A DNA stretch of 63,181 bases, counting the filler, from Rhabdomonas costata (taxonomy: Eukaryota): the NCBI GenBank assembly GCA_019059605.1. It is 57 parts of 57 records of this genome, joined end to end, with 100 filler letters (N's around TTAATTAATTAA, not from the genome) between each part and the next. Parts side by side here need not be neighbours in the genome. Positions count along the whole stretch, not along the records: positions 13,329 to 14,339 come from JAHMHO010033728.1; positions 14,440 to 15,450 come from JAHMHO010033729.1; 55 more parts are not named here. The stretch is one strand, 5' to 3'. The first letter of the stretch is position 1. Every line of letters starts with the position of its first letter. Below the pieces are notes generated by a model. That model searched no databases. It had not been told where the DNA came from and worked only from the letters and a program-made list of their open reading frames with translations. Positions 12,119 to 46,636 of this stretch are shown one piece after another. A program made the translations under genes and the position numbers.

Positions 12119-13051
12119 NNNNNNNNNNNNNNNNNNNNNNNNNNNNNNNNNNNNNNNNNNNNTTAATTAATTAANNNNNNNNNNNNNNNNNNNNNNNNNN
12201 NNNNNNNNNNNNNNNNNNGTTGGCTATGTCCCCCTGGGGCCCCGCCTGCAAAGAAGGCCCGCTCAATGGAAAGGGCCCCCTCCCCAGACCCTGGCGCTGT
12301 GATGCCCGCCGCCTACGAAGGTCCTTCCCAACCCTCGTTCTCATGAAAACATGCATGCACACACATACTCAGGCACACAGGTGGGCGGCAGCGTAAGTGG
12401 TCGTGACGGTCGTCATTCCAAGTATACTGTAAGAGACTATGCACGAGCTACCAGCCGGGGACTGACACCAGAATTCCTAGGAACGGTTCAGGCGGTGAGG
12501 CGACACCCGCGGTTTTCCCTTGACAGGGACTGAGAGCGAAGGGTGCGGCTAGCATCTTGGTTTCCGGCGATCGTTTGCTACGTTCAGGTTCAGAAGGCAG
12601 ATGTCCGCTTACAAAAGAAAAGAAAGTGCGCCACGTTCACGCATGTCTACGTTGTTCGCAAACACATGGGTAAGGAACTGCGAGGGACTGAGCAGCTCAG
12701 CATGAGCCAACGCATACTCTTGGCTGCAGCTTTGTGGGGATCAGCCCTCCCCTCCCCTCCTTCCTTCCCGAAGTCTAACTTCACGGACAAACTTCCAATT
12801 TGCTTCATTGTTGTGCTTATCGGATTTGAGTAACCAACTTGCGACAGGGTCGCTTTGTTGCTTGGTACATTCCTTTTTCGATTCGGTGCTGCCTGAGCAA
12901 CACGAAAGTCTCGTCTCCCCCCCCCCCCCCCCACTCACACAGTTTTGTTGTTTTGTTTCCTACGGACAACATGAGTTTTTTTTTGGGGGGGGATGAATGA
13001 TGGAGTTGAATGGGCATCATCGCCCTCCTCCTATGCGCTGCTCCTTCACAG

Positions 13052-13228
13052 GTGTTCCGGACATCCCAGCTTTCCCGGACCAGAGCCGGGTGCCAGGGCA
13101 GGCCCGGATCATCGACGGCAAGCGCGTGGCCGAGGTGATTCGGGCGGGGGTCCGCTCCGAAGTGCAGGCCAGGGTCAGCGCAGGGCTGCCGCCTCCCGGG
13201 CTGGCCGTGGTGCTGGTGGGCCAGGACC
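13052..13228 (+). CDS. folD: Exon encoding the N-terminus of methylenetetrahydrofolate dehydrogenase/cyclohydrolase
   Basis: [14 protein letters not shown]...[12 protein letters not shown] is the FolD N-terminal signature; preceded by a pyrimidine-rich CAG acceptor. Confidence 0.88.
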
Positions 13229-13610
13229 NNNNNNNNNNNNNNNNNNNNNNNNNNNNNNNNNNNNNNNNNNNNTTAATTAATTAANNNNNNNNNNNNNNNN
13301 NNNNNNNNNNNNNNNNNNNNNNNNNNNNTTTTTTTTGTGCAAATATTGGTAATGAATAAATATGTTCTTTATATAACTTTTTCATTCCAAATATAGAATT
13401 AAATTTTTTATTTACCAATGATAAATTATTTATGGAATGAAACGTTAAATACTCGTAAAATGTCGAATTGTAATAATTGTTAAATATGTTTATATATTGT
13501 TCATATTATTTTTATTACACATTTAAATATTTATTATGGATAGTATCAGTACTTGTTGAAATCTTTATATTGGTTATATATAATAGCTTGTTTTTTTAAA
13601 AACAAGATTT

Positions 13611-13859
13611 ATGATGGATCTATCTACAAAATTAAAAAACTTTAATGATATGCTTATAGCTCTTTGTCCATGGTGTAATGGTACAATATTAATTTTAGAA
13701 AGAAATTGTAATATATTCCGTCATGCATATGATAAAAATGGACATCAAGTCAATCCACATGCAACAGAAAAAGAATGTGTCAATAATACTTTTTATGGAT
13801 GTGGATTTCCTTTTCGTATTGAAAATAATGAACTTGTAAAATGTTCTTTTGATACTTAA
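13611..13859 (+). CDS. Small Cys/His-rich hypothetical protein of giant-virus (NCLDV)-like type
   Basis: Complete 82-aa intronless ORF in very AT-rich DNA; CPWC...NCNIFRH...QVNPH...KEC...YGCGFPF resembles a small conserved protein I recall from Mimiviridae-like genomes (not verified by search). Confidence 0.7.
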   Translation: MMDLSTKLKNFNDMLIALCPWCNGTILILERNCNIFRHAYDKNGHQVNPHATEKECVNNTFYGCGFPFRIENNELVKCSFDT

Positions 13860-13888
13860 ATTTTAAATATTGAAATATTTAAAATTTA
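13857..13888. terminator. Perfect AT-rich hairpin between convergent ORFs, putative bidirectional 3'-end signal
   Basis: TAAATTTTAAATATT-GA-AATATTTAAAATTTA, 15-bp arms whose outer triplets are the stop codons of the two genes. Confidence 0.7.
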
Positions 13889-14276
13889 TTTTTTATTTTG
13901 TAAATAATCTAGATCTGATTGTGTTACAAATATTTTCTTTTTACATGAATCATCTATCACAGTAAATTTTCCATCGATATATGAGAATTCTTCGGATATA
14001 ATATCTTTTGATGAAAGTTGTTTAAATACTTTATCATACATCATTTTGTGATGTATATGATTTATAATTGCATCAGATGTTCTTTCAAATTGGAACATAT
14101 ATTGACTATTGAATTCCAAATGTACATGAATTTGTATTTGGTCAATGATTTCTTTTAATTTATATATGGAGTATATAAATTTAAAATTTGTACAATTGAT
14201 ATGTGATGTCATGATTGTTATTACACTACTTAGTACTTCTAATTCTGAATATGCAATATCAAAAAAGATAACTTTA
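13886..14276 (-). CDS. Hypothetical protein on the AT-rich contig, probably 5'-truncated
   Basis: 108-aa ORF from ATG 14212; the frame stays open upstream (KVIFFDIAYSELEVLSSVITI) to the fold-back junction. Confidence 0.6.
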
Positions 14277-14332
14277 TTGATATTGCATATTCAGAATTAG
14301 AAGTACTAAGTAGTGTAATAACAATCATGACA
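14207..14332. repeat. 56-bp perfect inverted repeat at contig end, probable amplification fold-back
   Basis: Arms 14207-14262 and 14277-14332 are exact reverse complements around a 14-nt loop. Confidence 0.9.
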
Positions 14333-14657
14333 CCACACANNNNNNNNNNNNNNNNNNNNNNNNNNNNNNNNNNNNNNNNNNNNTTAATTAATTAANNNNN
14401 NNNNNNNNNNNNNNNNNNNNNNNNNNNNNNNNNNNNNNNTTTGTGTTTGGGCGACATTGTGCTCTGTTCCGTTTTGCCGCGTTTGTGTGTTTTCGTGCAG
14501 CCCCGACCTGTGGCGTGTGTTTTGTGCTTCTTGGCTAGTGGTATTGTTTTGAAGAGAGTCTGGAAGGCAATCATTCTCTCGTTTTTTATCCCCCACCCTC
14601 CGAATGATGCGAAGCAAGGGCAAAACTGGAGGAGAAGGCCGAGAGGGCGGTGTATTG

Positions 14658-25548: not shown

Positions 25549-26514
25549 TGTGTGGTGGTGGCGAAGATGGGCTCCACTGTTACTCGAGGGGAAGTCCAGG
25601 CCACGGTGCTGTTCACGGGGAAGAACACGTTCTTCGGGAAGACGGCCTCCCTCTTGCAGACCGGAGACGAACTTGGCAACCTACAGAAATTGCTGATTCA
25701 GATTATGATTGTGCTCGTGGTGATCTCCCTCATTCTTTGCATCACCGCTCTCGTTTACCTTCTTACTCAAGGCGAGCACAGAGAGGCCCTGAGCTTCACG
25801 GTGGTGCTTTTGGTGGCCTCGATCCCAGTTGCGATTGAGATCGTGGTGACGACGACGCTTGCGATGGGCTCGCGACAGCTAGCCGCCCACGGTGCTATTG
25901 TCACCCGTTTGGCCGCAATCGAGGACATGGCGGGGATGAGCATCCTTTGCTCGGACAAGACCGGGACGCTGACCTTGAACAAGATGGTGATCCAGGAGCA
26001 CACCCCGACGTACGTGCCTGGGGAGACGCAGCACACGATCCTTCTTGCGGCGGCGATGGCGGCGAAGTGGCACGAGCCTCCTCGGGACGCCCTGGACACG
26101 CTTGTGCTGGGCTCTGCGAAGCTGGACGAGCTCCACAATGTGGAGCAGTTGGATTACATGCCCTTCGACCCGACGGTGAAGCGTACGGAGGGCACGGTGA
26201 GGATGCCCAATGGGGAGACCTTCAAGACGACGAAGGGTGCGCCCCACATCCTGTGCCGCCTGCTCAATGACCACGAGCTGGTCGAACGCATCGAGGCTGA
26301 CGTCAAGGACCTGGGTTCGCGAGGGATTCGGTGTCTTGCGGTGGCGAAGACGGACAAGAGTGGCAACTGGAACATGCTGGGGCTGCTGACCTTCCTGGAC
26401 CCCCCGCGTCCGGACACCAAGGACACAATCGACAAGGCCAACGTTTACGGCGTGGAGGTAAAGATGATCACAGGTGACCACCTTCTGATTGCCAAGGAGA
26501 CGGCTCGGGTTCTG
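25549..26514 (+). CDS. PMA1: P3A-type plasma-membrane H+-ATPase, internal fragment
   Basis: TGKNTFFGKTA, VASIPVA, CSDKTGTLT phosphorylation site, PFDPTVKRT, KGAP, DPPRPDT, MITGD; bases after 26514 are a fold-back chimera. Confidence 0.95.
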
Positions 26515-26694
26515 GGCAATCAGAAGGTGGTCACCTGTGATCATCTTTACCCACACACCNNNNNNNNNNNNNNNNNNNNNNNNNNNNNNNNNNNNNNNNN
26601 NNNTTAATTAATTAANNNNNNNNNNNNNNNNNNNNNNNNNNNNNNNNNNNNNNNNNNNNGGTGGGGGTTTGAGGAGGACGAGCTGGTATTTAAC

Positions 26695-27420
26695 CAGCTC
26701 GTCCTCCTCAAACTCCCGGGTCCGCCAAGCCTTTGCACGAGCCCCCAGGTTTTTCGGAGAATCCTGGGGCTTCAGCGATTCCTCCGCACTGGCGCAAAAA
26801 TGGGGAAAGACACATGATGACATGGTGGAGATGATGACGACTGGGTTTCAAGAAGTTAGTGGCAGTTTCCCACAGAGAAGCGGCGTTAATGCTTTTTGCT
26901 GCACGCTTCAGACCGCCATGCGGTAATTATGACGACTGAGAGAGAGGAAGGTCACCCTCGTTCAAAAGTTGGCTGCTGTCAACCCGCCCTTGACCGGCAC
27001 CATATTCAGAACAAAACCTGAAACAAAAGCAGCCGATATGAGGAGTATTCGTTGTGGGTTTGCGGGACCCTTCGAAGGACAATGAACAAGACCCTCACCA
27101 CACCTAAGCTGCCCAGGGGCACCCTTTCCGGTTTTTGTTCTGAGGTAGCCCTCCAGGAACTCCACAGCGGATTCCCGGAGGGTGTGCACGAACACGCCAC
27201 CCGAGGACTGCGCCAGGGAGTGGGCCCCTTCCCGGAGGTGGCGGTACAGCTGTGCCGCGCACTCTCTGGCCACGGTGTGGTCCACCCTCTGGATAGCCAG
27301 GATCGGGGGAGACTGGGGGTATCCCGCAGTGTACCTGACCAGCAGCTTGCACCGCAGCCCGCCAACGGTGATCAGAATACGGAGAGTTGGGCCCGAGAAG
27401 CAAAAGCAGATCCAGAAGAA
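26695..27420 (-). CDS. RWD-domain protein, exons 27420-27104 and 26788-~26695
   Basis: LRCKLLVRYTAGYPQSPPILAI contains the RWD YPxxxP motif followed by helices ...GGVFVHTLRESAVEFL; phase-2 GT-AG intron joins the exons. Confidence 0.65.
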
Positions 27421-27938
27421 CTGATTTGATGCAACAAGCGTTCTGTTTTTTGGGGGATACTTTCACGTTCCTCTCAAAAGCTTATGAACAGTTGGCAAAC
27501 AAGAGTGCAAAGGAGGACGCCATTGGAGCATCGGGATGGAGGCCGCGTCAAACTTGACGCAGTTACGATTAACTTCCTAACCTCCTCAAACAATACTAAC
27601 ACTGAGCACTGGAGCAGATTGAACAAAGCATGGCCTCCAAAATACTTAGATCCTTGAAACCACAAAACCNNNNNNNNNNNNNNNNNNNNNNNNNNNNNNN
27701 NNNNNNNNNNNNNTTAATTAATTAANNNNNNNNNNNNNNNNNNNNNNNNNNNNNNNNNNNNNNNNNNNNCCGCTGACGCTCCTCCCTGCTGACTACGGGA
27801 GTGGGGAAGAAAGCCTGAAGCCTGAGAGCCTGAAAGGAGCTTGGGAGAAGGACCGGGGTCTCTCGTCTTTTCGGTAAGCGAACCGAAGTGTGTTTTCGGG
27901 GCATTGAGAAAGATGAGAGGACGTTGCAGAGCGCATAC

Positions 27939-42809: not shown

Positions 42810-45800
42810 CTGCACATCACCACCACAGGTACATAATTAGGACATAAACAGCAACATCTACCAAATCTTAACCGGCCGAAAACATTGAAAACCCCTGAAC
42901 AAAGTTCTGAACAAAAGGCTGTCATTACGCTTTTGCGCGATTCGTAGCCAGAAACTTTCTTATTGTTCAGGGCAAAAGTCAATACTTATCATTCACTCAT
43001 GTCGCTAATTGAACCGCTAAACATTGCATGAACTGAAAAATTCGCACGCACCGACAATGACGCGGGTGATGGGATCCACGTTTTGCCCGCATCGCCCACA
43101 TCGAAGAAGCGAGGTCTCCGGGACAAACACGGGGCCATGCTAAACGAATCAAAAAAAAATGAGCATTGATTGTTCAAGAAGAAGATACACAAAGTCACAC
43201 AACAAANNNNNNNNNNNNNNNNNNNNNNNNNNNNNNNNNNNNNNNNNNNNTTAATTAATTAANNNNNNNNNNNNNNNNNNNNNNNNNNNNNNNNNNNNNN
43301 NNNNNNTTTTGTGTGGTTTCTCCGCCGAAAGCACGCGGGGGGGGGGGGGCCTGCACCCCAATCCCTTTCTCTTCCGGTGCAGTCCAGTGTATTTGCCACG
43401 AAGAAAAAGGAAGGCAAATTTGCGTGCAGTACAGCACAGCTCAATAACATGTGGTGTCTGGTTTCCCTCTTTCTTTTTGCGCCTTTCCTTTTTTGCACAG
43501 GTGGCTACTTCGCCACAGGACAGCGCAGGTATTTTCAACAACTCGCCGTTTGTTGTGAACCCTGAACCCTCCGATACGAAGCCTGCACACGCACACAGGC
43601 ACACGTGGTTCCCATAATGCAGACTTAATCTCTTCTCACCAGAATGGATAATGCACCTTTCAGAATGCAAACCACAAGGATAAATTGAATCAGCACCCTC
43701 CCCACCAGTGTCCTCTTGTGGGTGGGCACAGCTGAAGGAGAAGGAAAACAGGGGACCCGGGTGGCATTCCCCTCACGTGGTCGTTGTCGCTTCCTTCGCT
43801 TCCTGGTTTTTGCGGGGGGGGGATGCTTACGTTGCTTTTGGCCACAGGGTTGGGCTGTGAGGGTTCCCACGCCCCCACATCACCGTATCTGCTTGCCGCT
43901 GCCATGTTGCCGTCCCTGAAACAAAAGTATTAACGTGATTTTTGCGCGTTTGGTGCTTTCATCTCGTTTTGATTTTATGTCATTCGTGCTTTGTTTGTTG
44001 GTATGGCGGGGTACCGTGCTGTGTGGGGTGTTATGTCGACCACGACGGGGTCTCGCATTTCCCGCCCAATTCTTTGTTGGCTGTATTTTTTTCGCCCCCA
44101 ACCGGTTTTCTTGCTCCTCCGCGTGGCAGCTGTTGCAGCTATTGCATTGTCAAGCTCGCCGCTTCCGGTGCCTTGAACTCATACATTCCTCCCTCCGAAA
44201 ACGGTCCGCATCCTGCCTGCAAATGCTCTTGCAGCCTCAGCTCTCACAGCCCCCCCCCCCCCCGCGTGCTTTCGGCGGAGAAACAACATGAAACCAATCA
44301 CAGAGGAATAAAAAAANNNNNNNNNNNNNNNNNNNNNNNNNNNNNNNNNNNNNNNNNNNNTTAATTAATTAANNNNNNNNNNNNNNNNNNNNNNNNNNNN
44401 NNNNNNNNNNNNNNNNCTACGACATTGGTGTCAAGAGGAAGTGCTTCCGGTGCCTTTGCGGAGCCCAGAAGGAAGACGCATCCTTTGAAGGCTCAACCGG
44501 GCACCTAGACCTTTATTTTTTGCATTGCTGCGTTCTCTCACTCCTTCACACTCACACACTCACTCTCACTCTCACTCACTCACTCACTCTCTCTCTCTCT
44601 TTTTGGTTCTAGAGAGGAGTGGGTTTTTGCCGGCTAGTCCTGAGAAGAAGGGGAACGATTTGTTTAAGCTAGGGTGGGCACTCGCACCTCTCGCTCTCCG
44701 CACTGCACACCGTTGAGTTAAAGGCGTGAGCTGCATATTGATAGTTGATGTTGTCAGATTTCAGGTTTCTTATTGAACCCCCTGCCCCGCCCCCTCCGGC
44801 CGCCAGCTCCGATTGGTAGTCACTGTGGGCACGGGATTTTCCAATATCCGTGACACAGACAAACACAGATGCGTCGTGGGGGCTCTGTTTTATCTTTTTT
44901 TTAGGACGGATGTGAGACCGCGGCCAATGGGTTTCCGTTTGTGTCATGCCCCCTTCATCATCTGTTCGTGTACGAAGTGGTTTACCAAGCACGCAGGCGA
45001 GAGATGAAAGAAAAAGAAAATCCAATAGCCGCTTACACTGAAGGGCGGGATTTACAACCACCGAAGCGATCCGGTGAAATCAAAAAGGAACAAGAGAAGG
45101 TATCCTTAGTTTTTCGTGGAGTGCGATGAGCGAAATACGGGTATCTCCGTGATGCAAGAGGTGACCAGAAATACGCAGAGTGCTGTACACAATGGTCCGT
45201 TTTTTTATTTTCCTATCCACACTCCGAAGCATGCGAGCTACTTCATGGTGTCAACAGGAAGTGCTTCCGGTGCCTATTGCAGGAGCTCAGAAGGAACAAT
45301 CATCCTTTGATGGCTCAACGGGGCACCTAGACTTTTTGTTTTTTTTCCATTCCCGAAATGGAAGGGAAGCTGCGTAACCTCGCTGCATTCTTTGTTCGAG
45401 TAGCATTCCTAGTAAGTGTAGCGAACNNNNNNNNNNNNNNNNNNNNNNNNNNNNNNNNNNNNNNNNNNNNTTAATTAATTAANNNNNNNNNNNNNNNNNN
45501 NNNNNNNNNNNNNNNNNNNNNNNNNNGTTTGTTTCCTGAGTATAGACTTCCTTCCTGACACTTGTGGCACCCAAAATGCAAAGAACGAAATCTATACTCA
45601 GGAAACAGAGCACGACCATTCCGCCGGGATGCAAAAGCTGGCAACACTGAAAGAGTTCCTGACTGCCTTGTTCCCATGGCTTCCCCTTTTCGGATGGAAG
45701 GTCTTTATACGGTGAATAAGTTTTGCCTGCACAGTCCAATTGTTTAACTTTTCCAGGCAGGCTGCTGTGCAGCCGTGTAACTGTATAGTTCCCGAGGTCT

Positions 45801-46170
45801 GCGGAGGCAGAGGGCTCCTGGCTAGGACAGAGACAAGGCGCCATGATCCTCGACGAGTCGGGAGCACCCCGGGAGCGGGAAAAGCTCTCAACCGCAACCC
45901 TTGATATGATGTCACATCATGACAGCATATGGGTGAAGAATCAGACTAGGGAGCTTCACAGACCAGGGTTACTACTACCCGCCCGACAACAAACAAACGC
46001 AGTGAATTCGGACGTTTTTTGTCACCCAGTAGCAAACGGAACCACCAACGTGTGGTGCAAGGTTCAGCTGCAGGTGCACGTGCACTTTTCAAAGACCCTC
46101 GAAAGAAAAGCAGTGCTTTCTTTTTTTCTTTCTCCTTTTCATCGTCACGGTGGTCACTTGCGCACCACAC

Positions 46171-46309
46171 CAGCCCAGTAGGACGCCACCATGATCACCC
46201 TAGACGGCATTCCACGCTGAAGGGCTTCCACAAGACCCCGAGTCATCCAGAGGTACCCCAGAACGTTGGTCGCCCACTGAACTTCAATGCCCTCAGCCGT
46301 CAACGTCTT
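46171..46309 (-). CDS. Exon of a short-chain dehydrogenase/reductase, retinol-dehydrogenase-like
   Basis: TAEGIEVQWATNVLGYLWMTRGLVEAL...SRVIMVAS fits the T.DG.E..F..N.LG.F.L...L...R.V.VSS pattern. Confidence 0.82.
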
Positions 46310-46636
46310 CTGTAAAACAAAGCCCACGAACTGAATTCCACTGGCCAATCTACAACCAGGTGAGGCAGGAGACAGCCCTCAGGACCTGCTCCAAGCAATG
46401 GAAAGGAGAGAGGAGAGGATCCCTTGCCACTTGATTTGAGTTTCAAAACCTCCTCACATTAGCAATACCTTGCTGAAATCGCCAAAGCTTGACCGAAAAC
46501 ACCCAACACAACCCACAACCCCCAAACACACCAACCNNNNNNNNNNNNNNNNNNNNNNNNNNNNNNNNNNNNNNNNNNNNTTAATTAATTAANNNNNNNN
46601 NNNNNNNNNNNNNNNNNNNNNNNNNNNNNNNNNNNN

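What the first reader, a model, noticed from the sequence alone, without database searches (positions are those of the whole stretch)
13329..14339. Giant-virus-like fragment among protist contigs
Seen: the only extremely AT-rich contig, gene-dense and intronless, without Shine-Dalgarno motifs, encoding an 82-aa CxxC/NCxIFRH/QxxPH/YGCGxPF protein. Recalled: this motif pattern occurs in small uncharacterised proteins of Mimiviridae-like viruses. Inference: an Imitervirales-like virus infecting, ingested by or endogenised in the sampled cell, possibly an undescribed virus-host pair, with a putative metal-binding protein of unknown function.
Basis: partly seen in the sequence, partly recalled or inferred. 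Interest (0 to 1): 0.75.

Follow-up and report, generated by a model that had tools for sequence, protein, structure and literature searches.

The report
Mimivirus-type DNA in euglenid assembly
This 1-kb AT-rich contig is a piece of a giant-virus genome of the mimivirus type, with a conserved, predicted zinc-binding gene of unknown role, and it is likely one of several related viral copies built into a euglenid's genome, though integration is not shown.

Summary
The contig is 22% GC (the other 56 are 41-63%) and encodes the 82-aa protein. That protein belongs to a large unnamed giant-virus family (2,148 clusters; Imitervirales and Pimascovirales; no Pfam match above cut-off), so it does not place the virus by itself. 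A perfect 15-bp hairpin lies on the stop codons of two convergent genes (0 of 1,000 shuffles), the Mimiviridae-type terminator. The assembly also holds capsid, VLTF3, D5 and capping-enzyme genes and 47 AAAATTGA promoter sites (control 1). The nearest classified capsid relatives are Mimiviridae, not the Asfuvirales found in Euglena. The public runs hold near-identical variants with mostly synonymous changes and some indels, and one capsid paralogue is broken. This fits several endogenous copies in a euglenid (about 0.55). Infection, or a virus of a co-sampled eukaryote, is not excluded: no junction is proven and two of the three runs share one amplification. The last 58 bases are an amplification artefact. 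This scan already noted many such fragments on other contigs of this genome.

The parts
13329..14339 (.). Whole contig G000:C33728, 22.3% GC, giant-virus DNA
13332..13505 (-). F-box-like frame (58 aa), runs off the contig end; no in-frame ATG in this copy
   Evidence: Pfam PF00646 E 4.8e-4, just under cut-off; frame; copies in the runs differ by an indel in this stretch
13506..13610 (.). Spacer between divergent genes; 5 of the 12 substitutions between variants fall here; no AAAATTGA
13611..13859 (+). ORF1, 82 aa (start may be Met2 or Met14): member of an unnamed giant-virus family with a predicted zinc-ribbon fold
13857..13888 (.). Perfect 15-bp hairpin with 2-nt loop over the stop codons of ORF1 and ORF2; likely a shared Mimiviridae-type 3'-end signal
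   Evidence: I3; 0 of 1000 shuffles reach 15 bp, 2 of 1000 reach 13 bp; the one substitution here is in the loop
13886..14281 (-). ORF2, 3' part (131 codons) of a gene with no relative found; real coding frame by variant pattern
   Evidence: 2 of 2 substitutions synonymous
14282..14339 (.). Second arm of a 66-nt fold-back (arms 14202-14267 and 14272-14337) and primer tail: amplification artefact
   Evidence: 4 of 57 window contigs end this way; a contig of run X3 runs on past 14281 with other letters

Best explanation
The contig is a fragment of a giant-virus genome of the Mimiviridae type, likely klosneuvirus-related, and is likely one of several related viral copies integrated in the nuclear genome of a euglenid, some of them starting to decay. 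How it works: ORF1 and ORF2 point at each other and would end on one shared hairpin, which in Mimiviridae is cut and polyadenylated by viral enzymes (hairpin shown; use inferred). ORF1 is predicted to fold as a zinc ribbon with an inserted hairpin and helix. C19, C22, H38 and C64 would hold one zinc (inferred from the fold match to LysW and IBR/RING2 domains and from H-to-C swaps at 38). C33, R37 and H50 are near-invariant and, with the co-varying C56 and C78, likely form a second metal site or exposed patch. My committed reading is a two-zinc binding module for a protein or nucleic-acid partner (about 0.5); a RING2-like reactive cysteine at C33 is the rival (about 0.2). Shown: viral family, hairpin, hallmark genes, variant copies diverged under purifying selection, one broken capsid paralogue. 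Inferred: same virus group for this contig and the markers, host identity, integration, metal sites.
For: Family: 369 representatives; 2148 of 2575 candidates; 120 of 124 stretches in viral contigs, 26 of the 80 kept named GVMAG; only significant BFVD match is a Yasminevirus protein, TM 0.80, E 1.2e-5. Mimiviridae type: hairpin; 10 such hairpins in 34 AT-rich loci against a mean of 0.12 in 60 shuffles; 47 AAAATTGA sites against 1 control; both motifs are listed as family features in PMC6163669 and reported for Bodo saltans virus; three classified capsid relatives of L007 are all IM_16 Mimiviridae; named BFVD capsids with highest identity are Harvfovirus 62%, Terrestrivirus 52%, Indivirus 45%, against 12% for ASFV. 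Several copies: variants in the runs; 5 of 5 substitutions inside ORF1 codons 2-82 and ORF2 synonymous where about 19% is expected; 16 of 25 synonymous in a second locus; two capping enzymes 69% identical with the same neighbour. Decay and low copy: capsid paralogue L006 with stop, frame change and missing middle; indels between copies in all three genes; summed depth mostly 5-20 per bin, short contigs, A32 and viral PolB not recovered. Host: 18S with 1988 nt over 1259 model positions, read as euglenid from recalled motifs; earlier notes name an osmotrophic genus, a clade without ingestion apparatus (PMC8061765).
Against: No virus-host junction is on this contig or proven elsewhere. Runs X1 and X2 share the fold-back joint and a primer-tailed end, so they are not independent, and X3 does not cover the breaks in L006. 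Only 1 of 11 marker pieces examined is broken. Indels in low-depth amplified DNA can be errors. The assembly holds a plant-like 18S and a fungal-like polymerase (labels by my reading), so the host is not certain. The contig is tied to the markers only by base composition and motifs. VLTF3's one classified relative is IM_07 at 49% and ORF1's is IM_13 at 45%. No host-depth baseline was measured.
Confidence: 0.55

Rival explanations
1. The DNA comes from a mixed population of free, replicating or persistently infecting Mimiviridae in the euglenid culture; indels are amplification errors and the broken capsid gene is a dead paralogue inside a live virus.
For: 10 of 11 marker pieces are open frames; variants differ mostly at synonymous sites; promoters and hairpins are intact.
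Against: Low depth, short contigs and missing A32 and PolB do not look like a replicating virus; at least two close variants plus a 69% relative in one sample; earlier notes report several other broken viral genes (not tested here).
Confidence: 0.2
2. The virus, free or endogenous, belongs to another eukaryote in the sample or came in from medium or reagents, so there is no euglenid-virus pair.
For: Plant-like 18S (L009) and fungal-like Pol alpha (L012) are in the assembly; all three holder runs are one sample and one study.
Against: Viral DNA is spread over dozens of contigs and is in all three runs with the same variants; no 18S of an amoeba or flagellate was seen among the 8 matches, though that search was a floor.
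Confidence: 0.18
3. Virus particles were eaten by a phagotrophic cell shortly before amplification.
For: Low copy number and strain mixture fit prey DNA.
Against: The expanded 18S and earlier notes point to an osmotrophic euglenid without ingestion apparatus; a broken capsid copy is unexpected in prey virions.
Confidence: 0.04
4. The contig is bacterial, organellar or AT-rich eukaryotic DNA.
For: A few long relatives of ORF1 look eukaryotic by eye (no Pfam support).
Against: No true prokaryote member found; no phage match; Atlas clusters 100% viral (weak by its own recognition score); hairpin and gene layout.
Confidence: 0.03

Closest known systems
Giant endogenous viral elements of Euglena gracilis (PMC12455990; parts 1-2 of 6 read)
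   Same: AT-rich (25-37% GC) giant-virus DNA in a roughly 50% GC euglenid genome, in several related copies, with missing or duplicated markers.
   Different: Those are Asfuvirales with shown chromosomal integration. Here the markers are Mimiviridae-type (12% capsid identity to ASFV) and integration is not shown.
Bodo saltans virus (Mimiviridae, klosneuvirus group; PMC5871332, passages read)
   Same: 25% GC, AAAAATTGA early promoter, 3' hairpins, several capsid paralogues, euglenozoan host.
   Different: A lytic isolate of a phagotrophic kinetoplastid with proposed entry by phagocytosis. No BsV main capsid was available for direct comparison; the nearest capsids to L007 are unclassified metagenome contigs at 65-71%.
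Yasminevirus uncharacterised protein A0A5K0UAF1 and its unnamed family
   Same: Same predicted fold as ORF1: TM 0.80, rmsd 1.8, 32% identity.
   Different: No function is known for either; the family has no Pfam model at cut-off.
LysW carrier protein and IBR/RING2 domains of RBR ubiquitin ligases
   Same: Zinc-ribbon core (Z 4.1 and 2.0-3.4). C33 sits 5 residues before the third ligand, as the GC-D-H-M-T-C cysteine does in host RING2-like pieces.
   Different: Z-scores are not significant; ORF1 has a 25-residue insertion, no RING1 or IBR partner domains, Ile where most RING2 have the catalytic His, and no LysW-type terminal Glu.

Membership tests
Nucleocytoviricota | Hallmark genes (capsid, VLTF3, D5, capping enzyme) in the same assembly | tested here: met
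   Capsid 5 matches on 4 contigs, VLTF3 1 (23), D5 2 (51), two AT-rich capping enzymes (52, 54); none on this contig
Nucleocytoviricota | A32 ATPase and viral PolB | tested here: inconclusive
   A32 0 matches; 13 PolB matches all on 46-56% GC contigs; assembly incomplete
Mimiviridae | Hairpin 3'-end signals | tested here: met
   On this contig; 10 in 34 AT-rich loci against 0.12. Not unique: Pithovirus also obeys the rule
Mimiviridae | AAAATTGA early promoter prevalent | tested here: met
   47 against 1 control in G000; none on this contig
Mimiviridae | Marker phylogeny inside IM_16 | tested here: inconclusive
   Three classified capsid relatives are IM_16 but the quick tree had no outside families and rows were chosen by likeness; VLTF3's classified relative is IM_07
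Klosneuvirinae | Marker phylogeny with named members | tested here: inconclusive
   Highest capsid identities to Harvfovirus, Terrestrivirus, Indivirus, Klosneuvirus on a weak model; subfamily labels of these names are partly recalled
Giant endogenous viral element | Viral DNA contiguous with host chromosome | tested here: inconclusive
   None on this contig; one single-contig candidate (L206) in a chimera-rich assembly
Giant endogenous viral element | Erosion and several related copies | tested here: inconclusive
   Variants and indels; 1 of 11 marker pieces broken; breaks seen only in two non-independent runs
Euglena-type Asfuvirales element | Markers group with Asfuvirales | tested here: not met
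   Capsid 12-15% to ASFV and abalone asfa-like virus, 42-62% to the closest Mimiviridae; one of five capsid pieces tested
RBR RING2 (catalytic) domain | RING1-IBR-RING2 module | tested here: not met
   82-aa stand-alone protein; none of 30 longer relatives had an RBR domain in Pfam
RBR RING2 (catalytic) domain | Reactive cysteine forming a ubiquitin thioester | not testable with these tools
   C33 invariant in 271 of 271; fold match weak; profile match CxxC only

The most novel reading that the evidence does not exclude
A lineage of klosneuvirus-related Mimiviridae has repeatedly integrated into the genome of an osmotrophic euglenid that has no ingestion apparatus. That would be the first Imitervirales-euglenid pair and would imply entry without phagocytosis. 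More boldly, its conserved 82-aa protein is a stand-alone RING2-like Cys-His catalytic domain spread across giant viruses (about 0.2 by itself, not counted in the probability).
Probability: 0.4. Interest if true: 0.7.

Novelty: new member of a known kind. Interest (0 to 1): 0.42.

Why it matters
Hosts of most Mimiviridae are unknown. The only giant virus isolate named for Discoba is Bodo saltans virus, and the only euglenid elements I found in print are Asfuvirales (PMC12455990; searches). A Mimiviridae-type element in an osmotrophic euglenid would add a host class and test whether these viruses need phagocytosis to enter. The small protein marks a family of over 2,000 clusters with no Pfam model and an invariant Cys/Arg/His set, an easy target for biochemistry. 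The contig alone is an ordinary viral fragment.

Tried and rejected
Word-index search with ORF1 alone: nothing; the profile route found the family. ORF2: no relative, which shows no novelty. Pfam for ORF1: best E 0.066; 107 members gave only weak zinc-ribbon hits. PDB by sequence and Foldseek: no significant match. Phage collection: none. Conserved gene neighbours of the family in 81 loci (RNase H-like, kinase-like and others in 31-37 loci, names by eye) were not used for function, because 80 loci came from one query and are kin. Terminal inverted repeat as a real hairpin genome end: rejected. Runs X1-X3 as three independent confirmations: rejected. No RNA holder listed, no evidence either way. 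Capping-enzyme search in viral contigs: none. A motif count of relatives lacking both C56 and C78 over-counted (12); the alignment recount is 8 of 271. A paper search for the 18S motifs gave 2 unrelated papers, so the euglenid reading rests on recall and earlier notes. Cluster look-up gave no accessions or organism names. No complex prediction was run.

Full report
Setting. The window is 57 unlinked contigs of about 1 kb joined by N spacers. 71 of 114 contig ends are GT-only or AC-only runs, and 4 of 57 contigs end in a fold-back, as expected of whole-genome amplification. G000 has 97 Mb in 104,289 contigs, and the finding is contig C33728. One 18S gene spans 1988 nt over 1259 model positions; I read it as euglenid from recalled motifs. 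A second 18S looks plant-like and a polymerase alpha piece looks fungal (my reading), so the sample is not pure. Earlier AI notes name the host as the euglenid Rhabdomonas; I did not test this beyond the expanded 18S. PMC8061765 (passages) places that genus in Aphagea, osmotrophs without ingestion apparatus.

Observation. The contig is 22.3% GC against 41.0-63.4% for the other 56. ORF1 (13611-13859, +) has the stated motifs. ORF2 ends at 13886 on the minus strand. A third, F-box-like frame lies at 13332-13505 (-) and has no in-frame ATG in this copy. The last 58 bases are a fold-back: a contig of run X3 runs on past 14281 with other letters.

The small protein. A full HMMER scan found 369 representatives, best E 5e-16 at 49%. 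A profile of 107 of these sequences found 2148 of 2575 candidates. In viral contigs, 120 of 124 stretches were relatives of one member; 26 of the 80 kept are named GVMAG. Of 7 such genomes looked up in the supplement of PMC8575486, 4 were listed: IM_13, IM_01 twice and Pimascovirales PM_01. In prokaryote genomes, 4 of 93 stretches passed; three are 11-30 residues, and the fourth lies on a 1.8-kb contig with the same neighbours as the viral loci, so it is likely misbinned. The family is therefore giant-viral but not specific to Imitervirales. In 271 sequences C33 and P20 are invariant; C19, C22 and H50 are in 270, R37 in 269, C64 in 267 and H38 in 266, with 4 swaps to Cys. C56 and C78 tend to be lost together (odds ratio 7, p 5e-4, sequences not independent), and the 8 that lack both keep C33, R37, H38, H50 and C64. 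About half end in CDYI (138 of 271). Six of the 8 closest relatives have their first cysteine within 10 residues of the start, so ORF1 may begin at Met14.

Fold. The model has pLDDT 85.5. Its one significant BFVD match is a Yasminevirus protein. No solved structure matches significantly. VIA-align ranks LysW (Z 4.1) and IBR/RING2 domains (Z 2.0-3.4) first, which suggests only a zinc-ribbon core. From that I infer one zinc on C19, C22, H38 and C64, and a second site or patch on C33, R37, H50, C56 and C78. I could not measure distances. C33 lies where RBR ligases have their reactive cysteine by spacing (HOIL-1 C460 and its displaced His510 in PMC9834252, passages), but the profile comparison aligned only CxxC. 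I put a two-zinc binding module at about 0.5 and a reactive thiol at about 0.2.

Which virus. A perfect 15-bp hairpin with a 2-nt loop covers the stop codons of ORF1 and ORF2. No shuffle of 1000 reached 15 bp and 2 reached 13 bp (the 13-bp, 5-nt thresholds are recalled). Such hairpins and AAAATTGA are listed as Mimiviridae features (PMC6163669, PMC4402537, PMC5871332; passages), though Pithovirus also uses hairpins. In G000 the promoter in AT context occurs 47 times against 1 for the reversed pattern, and 34 AT-rich loci hold 10 hairpins against 0.12 in shuffles. Capsid, VLTF3, D5 and capping-enzyme genes are present, as are an NAD-dependent ligase, a primase, kinases and F-box/LRR genes. A32 and a viral PolB were not found. 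The three classified relatives of capsid piece L007 are IM_16 Mimiviridae (a fourth was not listed), and its closest relatives are unclassified contigs at 65-71%. On a weak model (pLDDT 65.5) the highest identities are to Harvfovirus, Terrestrivirus, Indivirus and Klosneuvirus capsids, and 12-15% to asfarviruses. VLTF3's one classified relative is IM_07 at 49%. The 18% GC D5 piece may be from a Polinton-like virus, which earlier notes report here.

Free or integrated. Three runs of one sample hold the contig. Their contigs differ from it at 12 positions and 5 indels. Five substitutions inside ORF1 codons 2-82 and ORF2 are all synonymous, one hits codon 1, five are in the spacer and one is in the hairpin loop. 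So both ORFs are real genes and the variants diverged under selection. Indels between copies fall in all three genes. At a second locus (L006) all three runs hold a variant about 94% identical, with 16 of 25 changes synonymous, beside a capsid paralogue with a stop, a frame change and a missing middle. Two capping enzymes are 69% identical. Depth is low and contigs short. This pattern of several related, partly broken, low-copy genomes resembles the Euglena elements (PMC12455990, parts 1-2 of 6). Against it: X1 and X2 share the fold-back joint and a primer-tailed end, so they are probably one amplification; X3 does not cover the capsid breaks; 10 of 11 marker pieces are open; and the only junction candidate, a host repeat about 80 bases from a promoter-bearing stretch in L206, is a single contig. 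I had no host-depth baseline.

Prior art. Searches for euglenid with giant virus, Klosneuvirinae or Mimiviridae, and for the host genus with Mimivirus terms (with 40 of 817 listed, 103) returned the Euglena Asfuvirales paper and a review, and no Imitervirales-euglenid report. Subscription journals are mostly outside this library, and bioRxiv supplements, which could list such pairs, were not read. Within this scan, 124 of 462 notes on this genome fit virus words, so the association is not new to the scan. This report adds the hairpin test, the variant analysis and the description of the protein family.

Verdict. A real Mimiviridae-type fragment. Endogenous in a euglenid 0.55, live or persistent infection 0.2, another host or contamination 0.18, ingestion 0.04, non-viral 0.03. 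New member of a known kind; interest 0.42.

Noticed in passing
L206:1086-1717 (G000:C9408): A host repeat found on 10 other contigs (73-87%) lies about 80 bases from an AAAATTGA-bearing stretch shared at 95% with L231; a candidate virus-host or mobile-element junction on one contig.
   Followed up: partly
L202, L207, L225, L226: AAAATTGA-led genes with 40-55% GC coding regions between very AT-rich spacers, some in repeated cassettes of 80-93% identity; possibly a second virus or recently gained genes.
   Followed up: no
L005:30-1976 (G000:C6785): Two capsid paralogues in tandem, both open frames, 24% GC.
   Followed up: partly
L009 and L012: Plant-like 18S and fungal-like polymerase alpha in the assembly, so the sample is mixed (labels by my reading).
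   Followed up: no
L245 (CAILDT010000051.1): A giant-virus-type contig with a relative of ORF1 sits in a Bacteroidetes bin, likely misbinned.
   Followed up: yes
P0098, P0110, P0084: Two long relatives of ORF1 carry an N-terminal region that looks like a MATH domain by eye (no Pfam hit); one carries a piece matching MavL-like ADP-ribosylhydrolase (E 1.5e-9).
   Followed up: no
window 25549-26559, 26660-27669, 45527-46536: Other contigs with terminal fold-backs of 25-42 bp, amplification artefacts that could be mistaken for inverted repeats.
   Followed up: yes
window 12997-13228: The neighbouring, unlinked contig ends in what looks like the start of a FolD-type gene (by eye).
   Followed up: no
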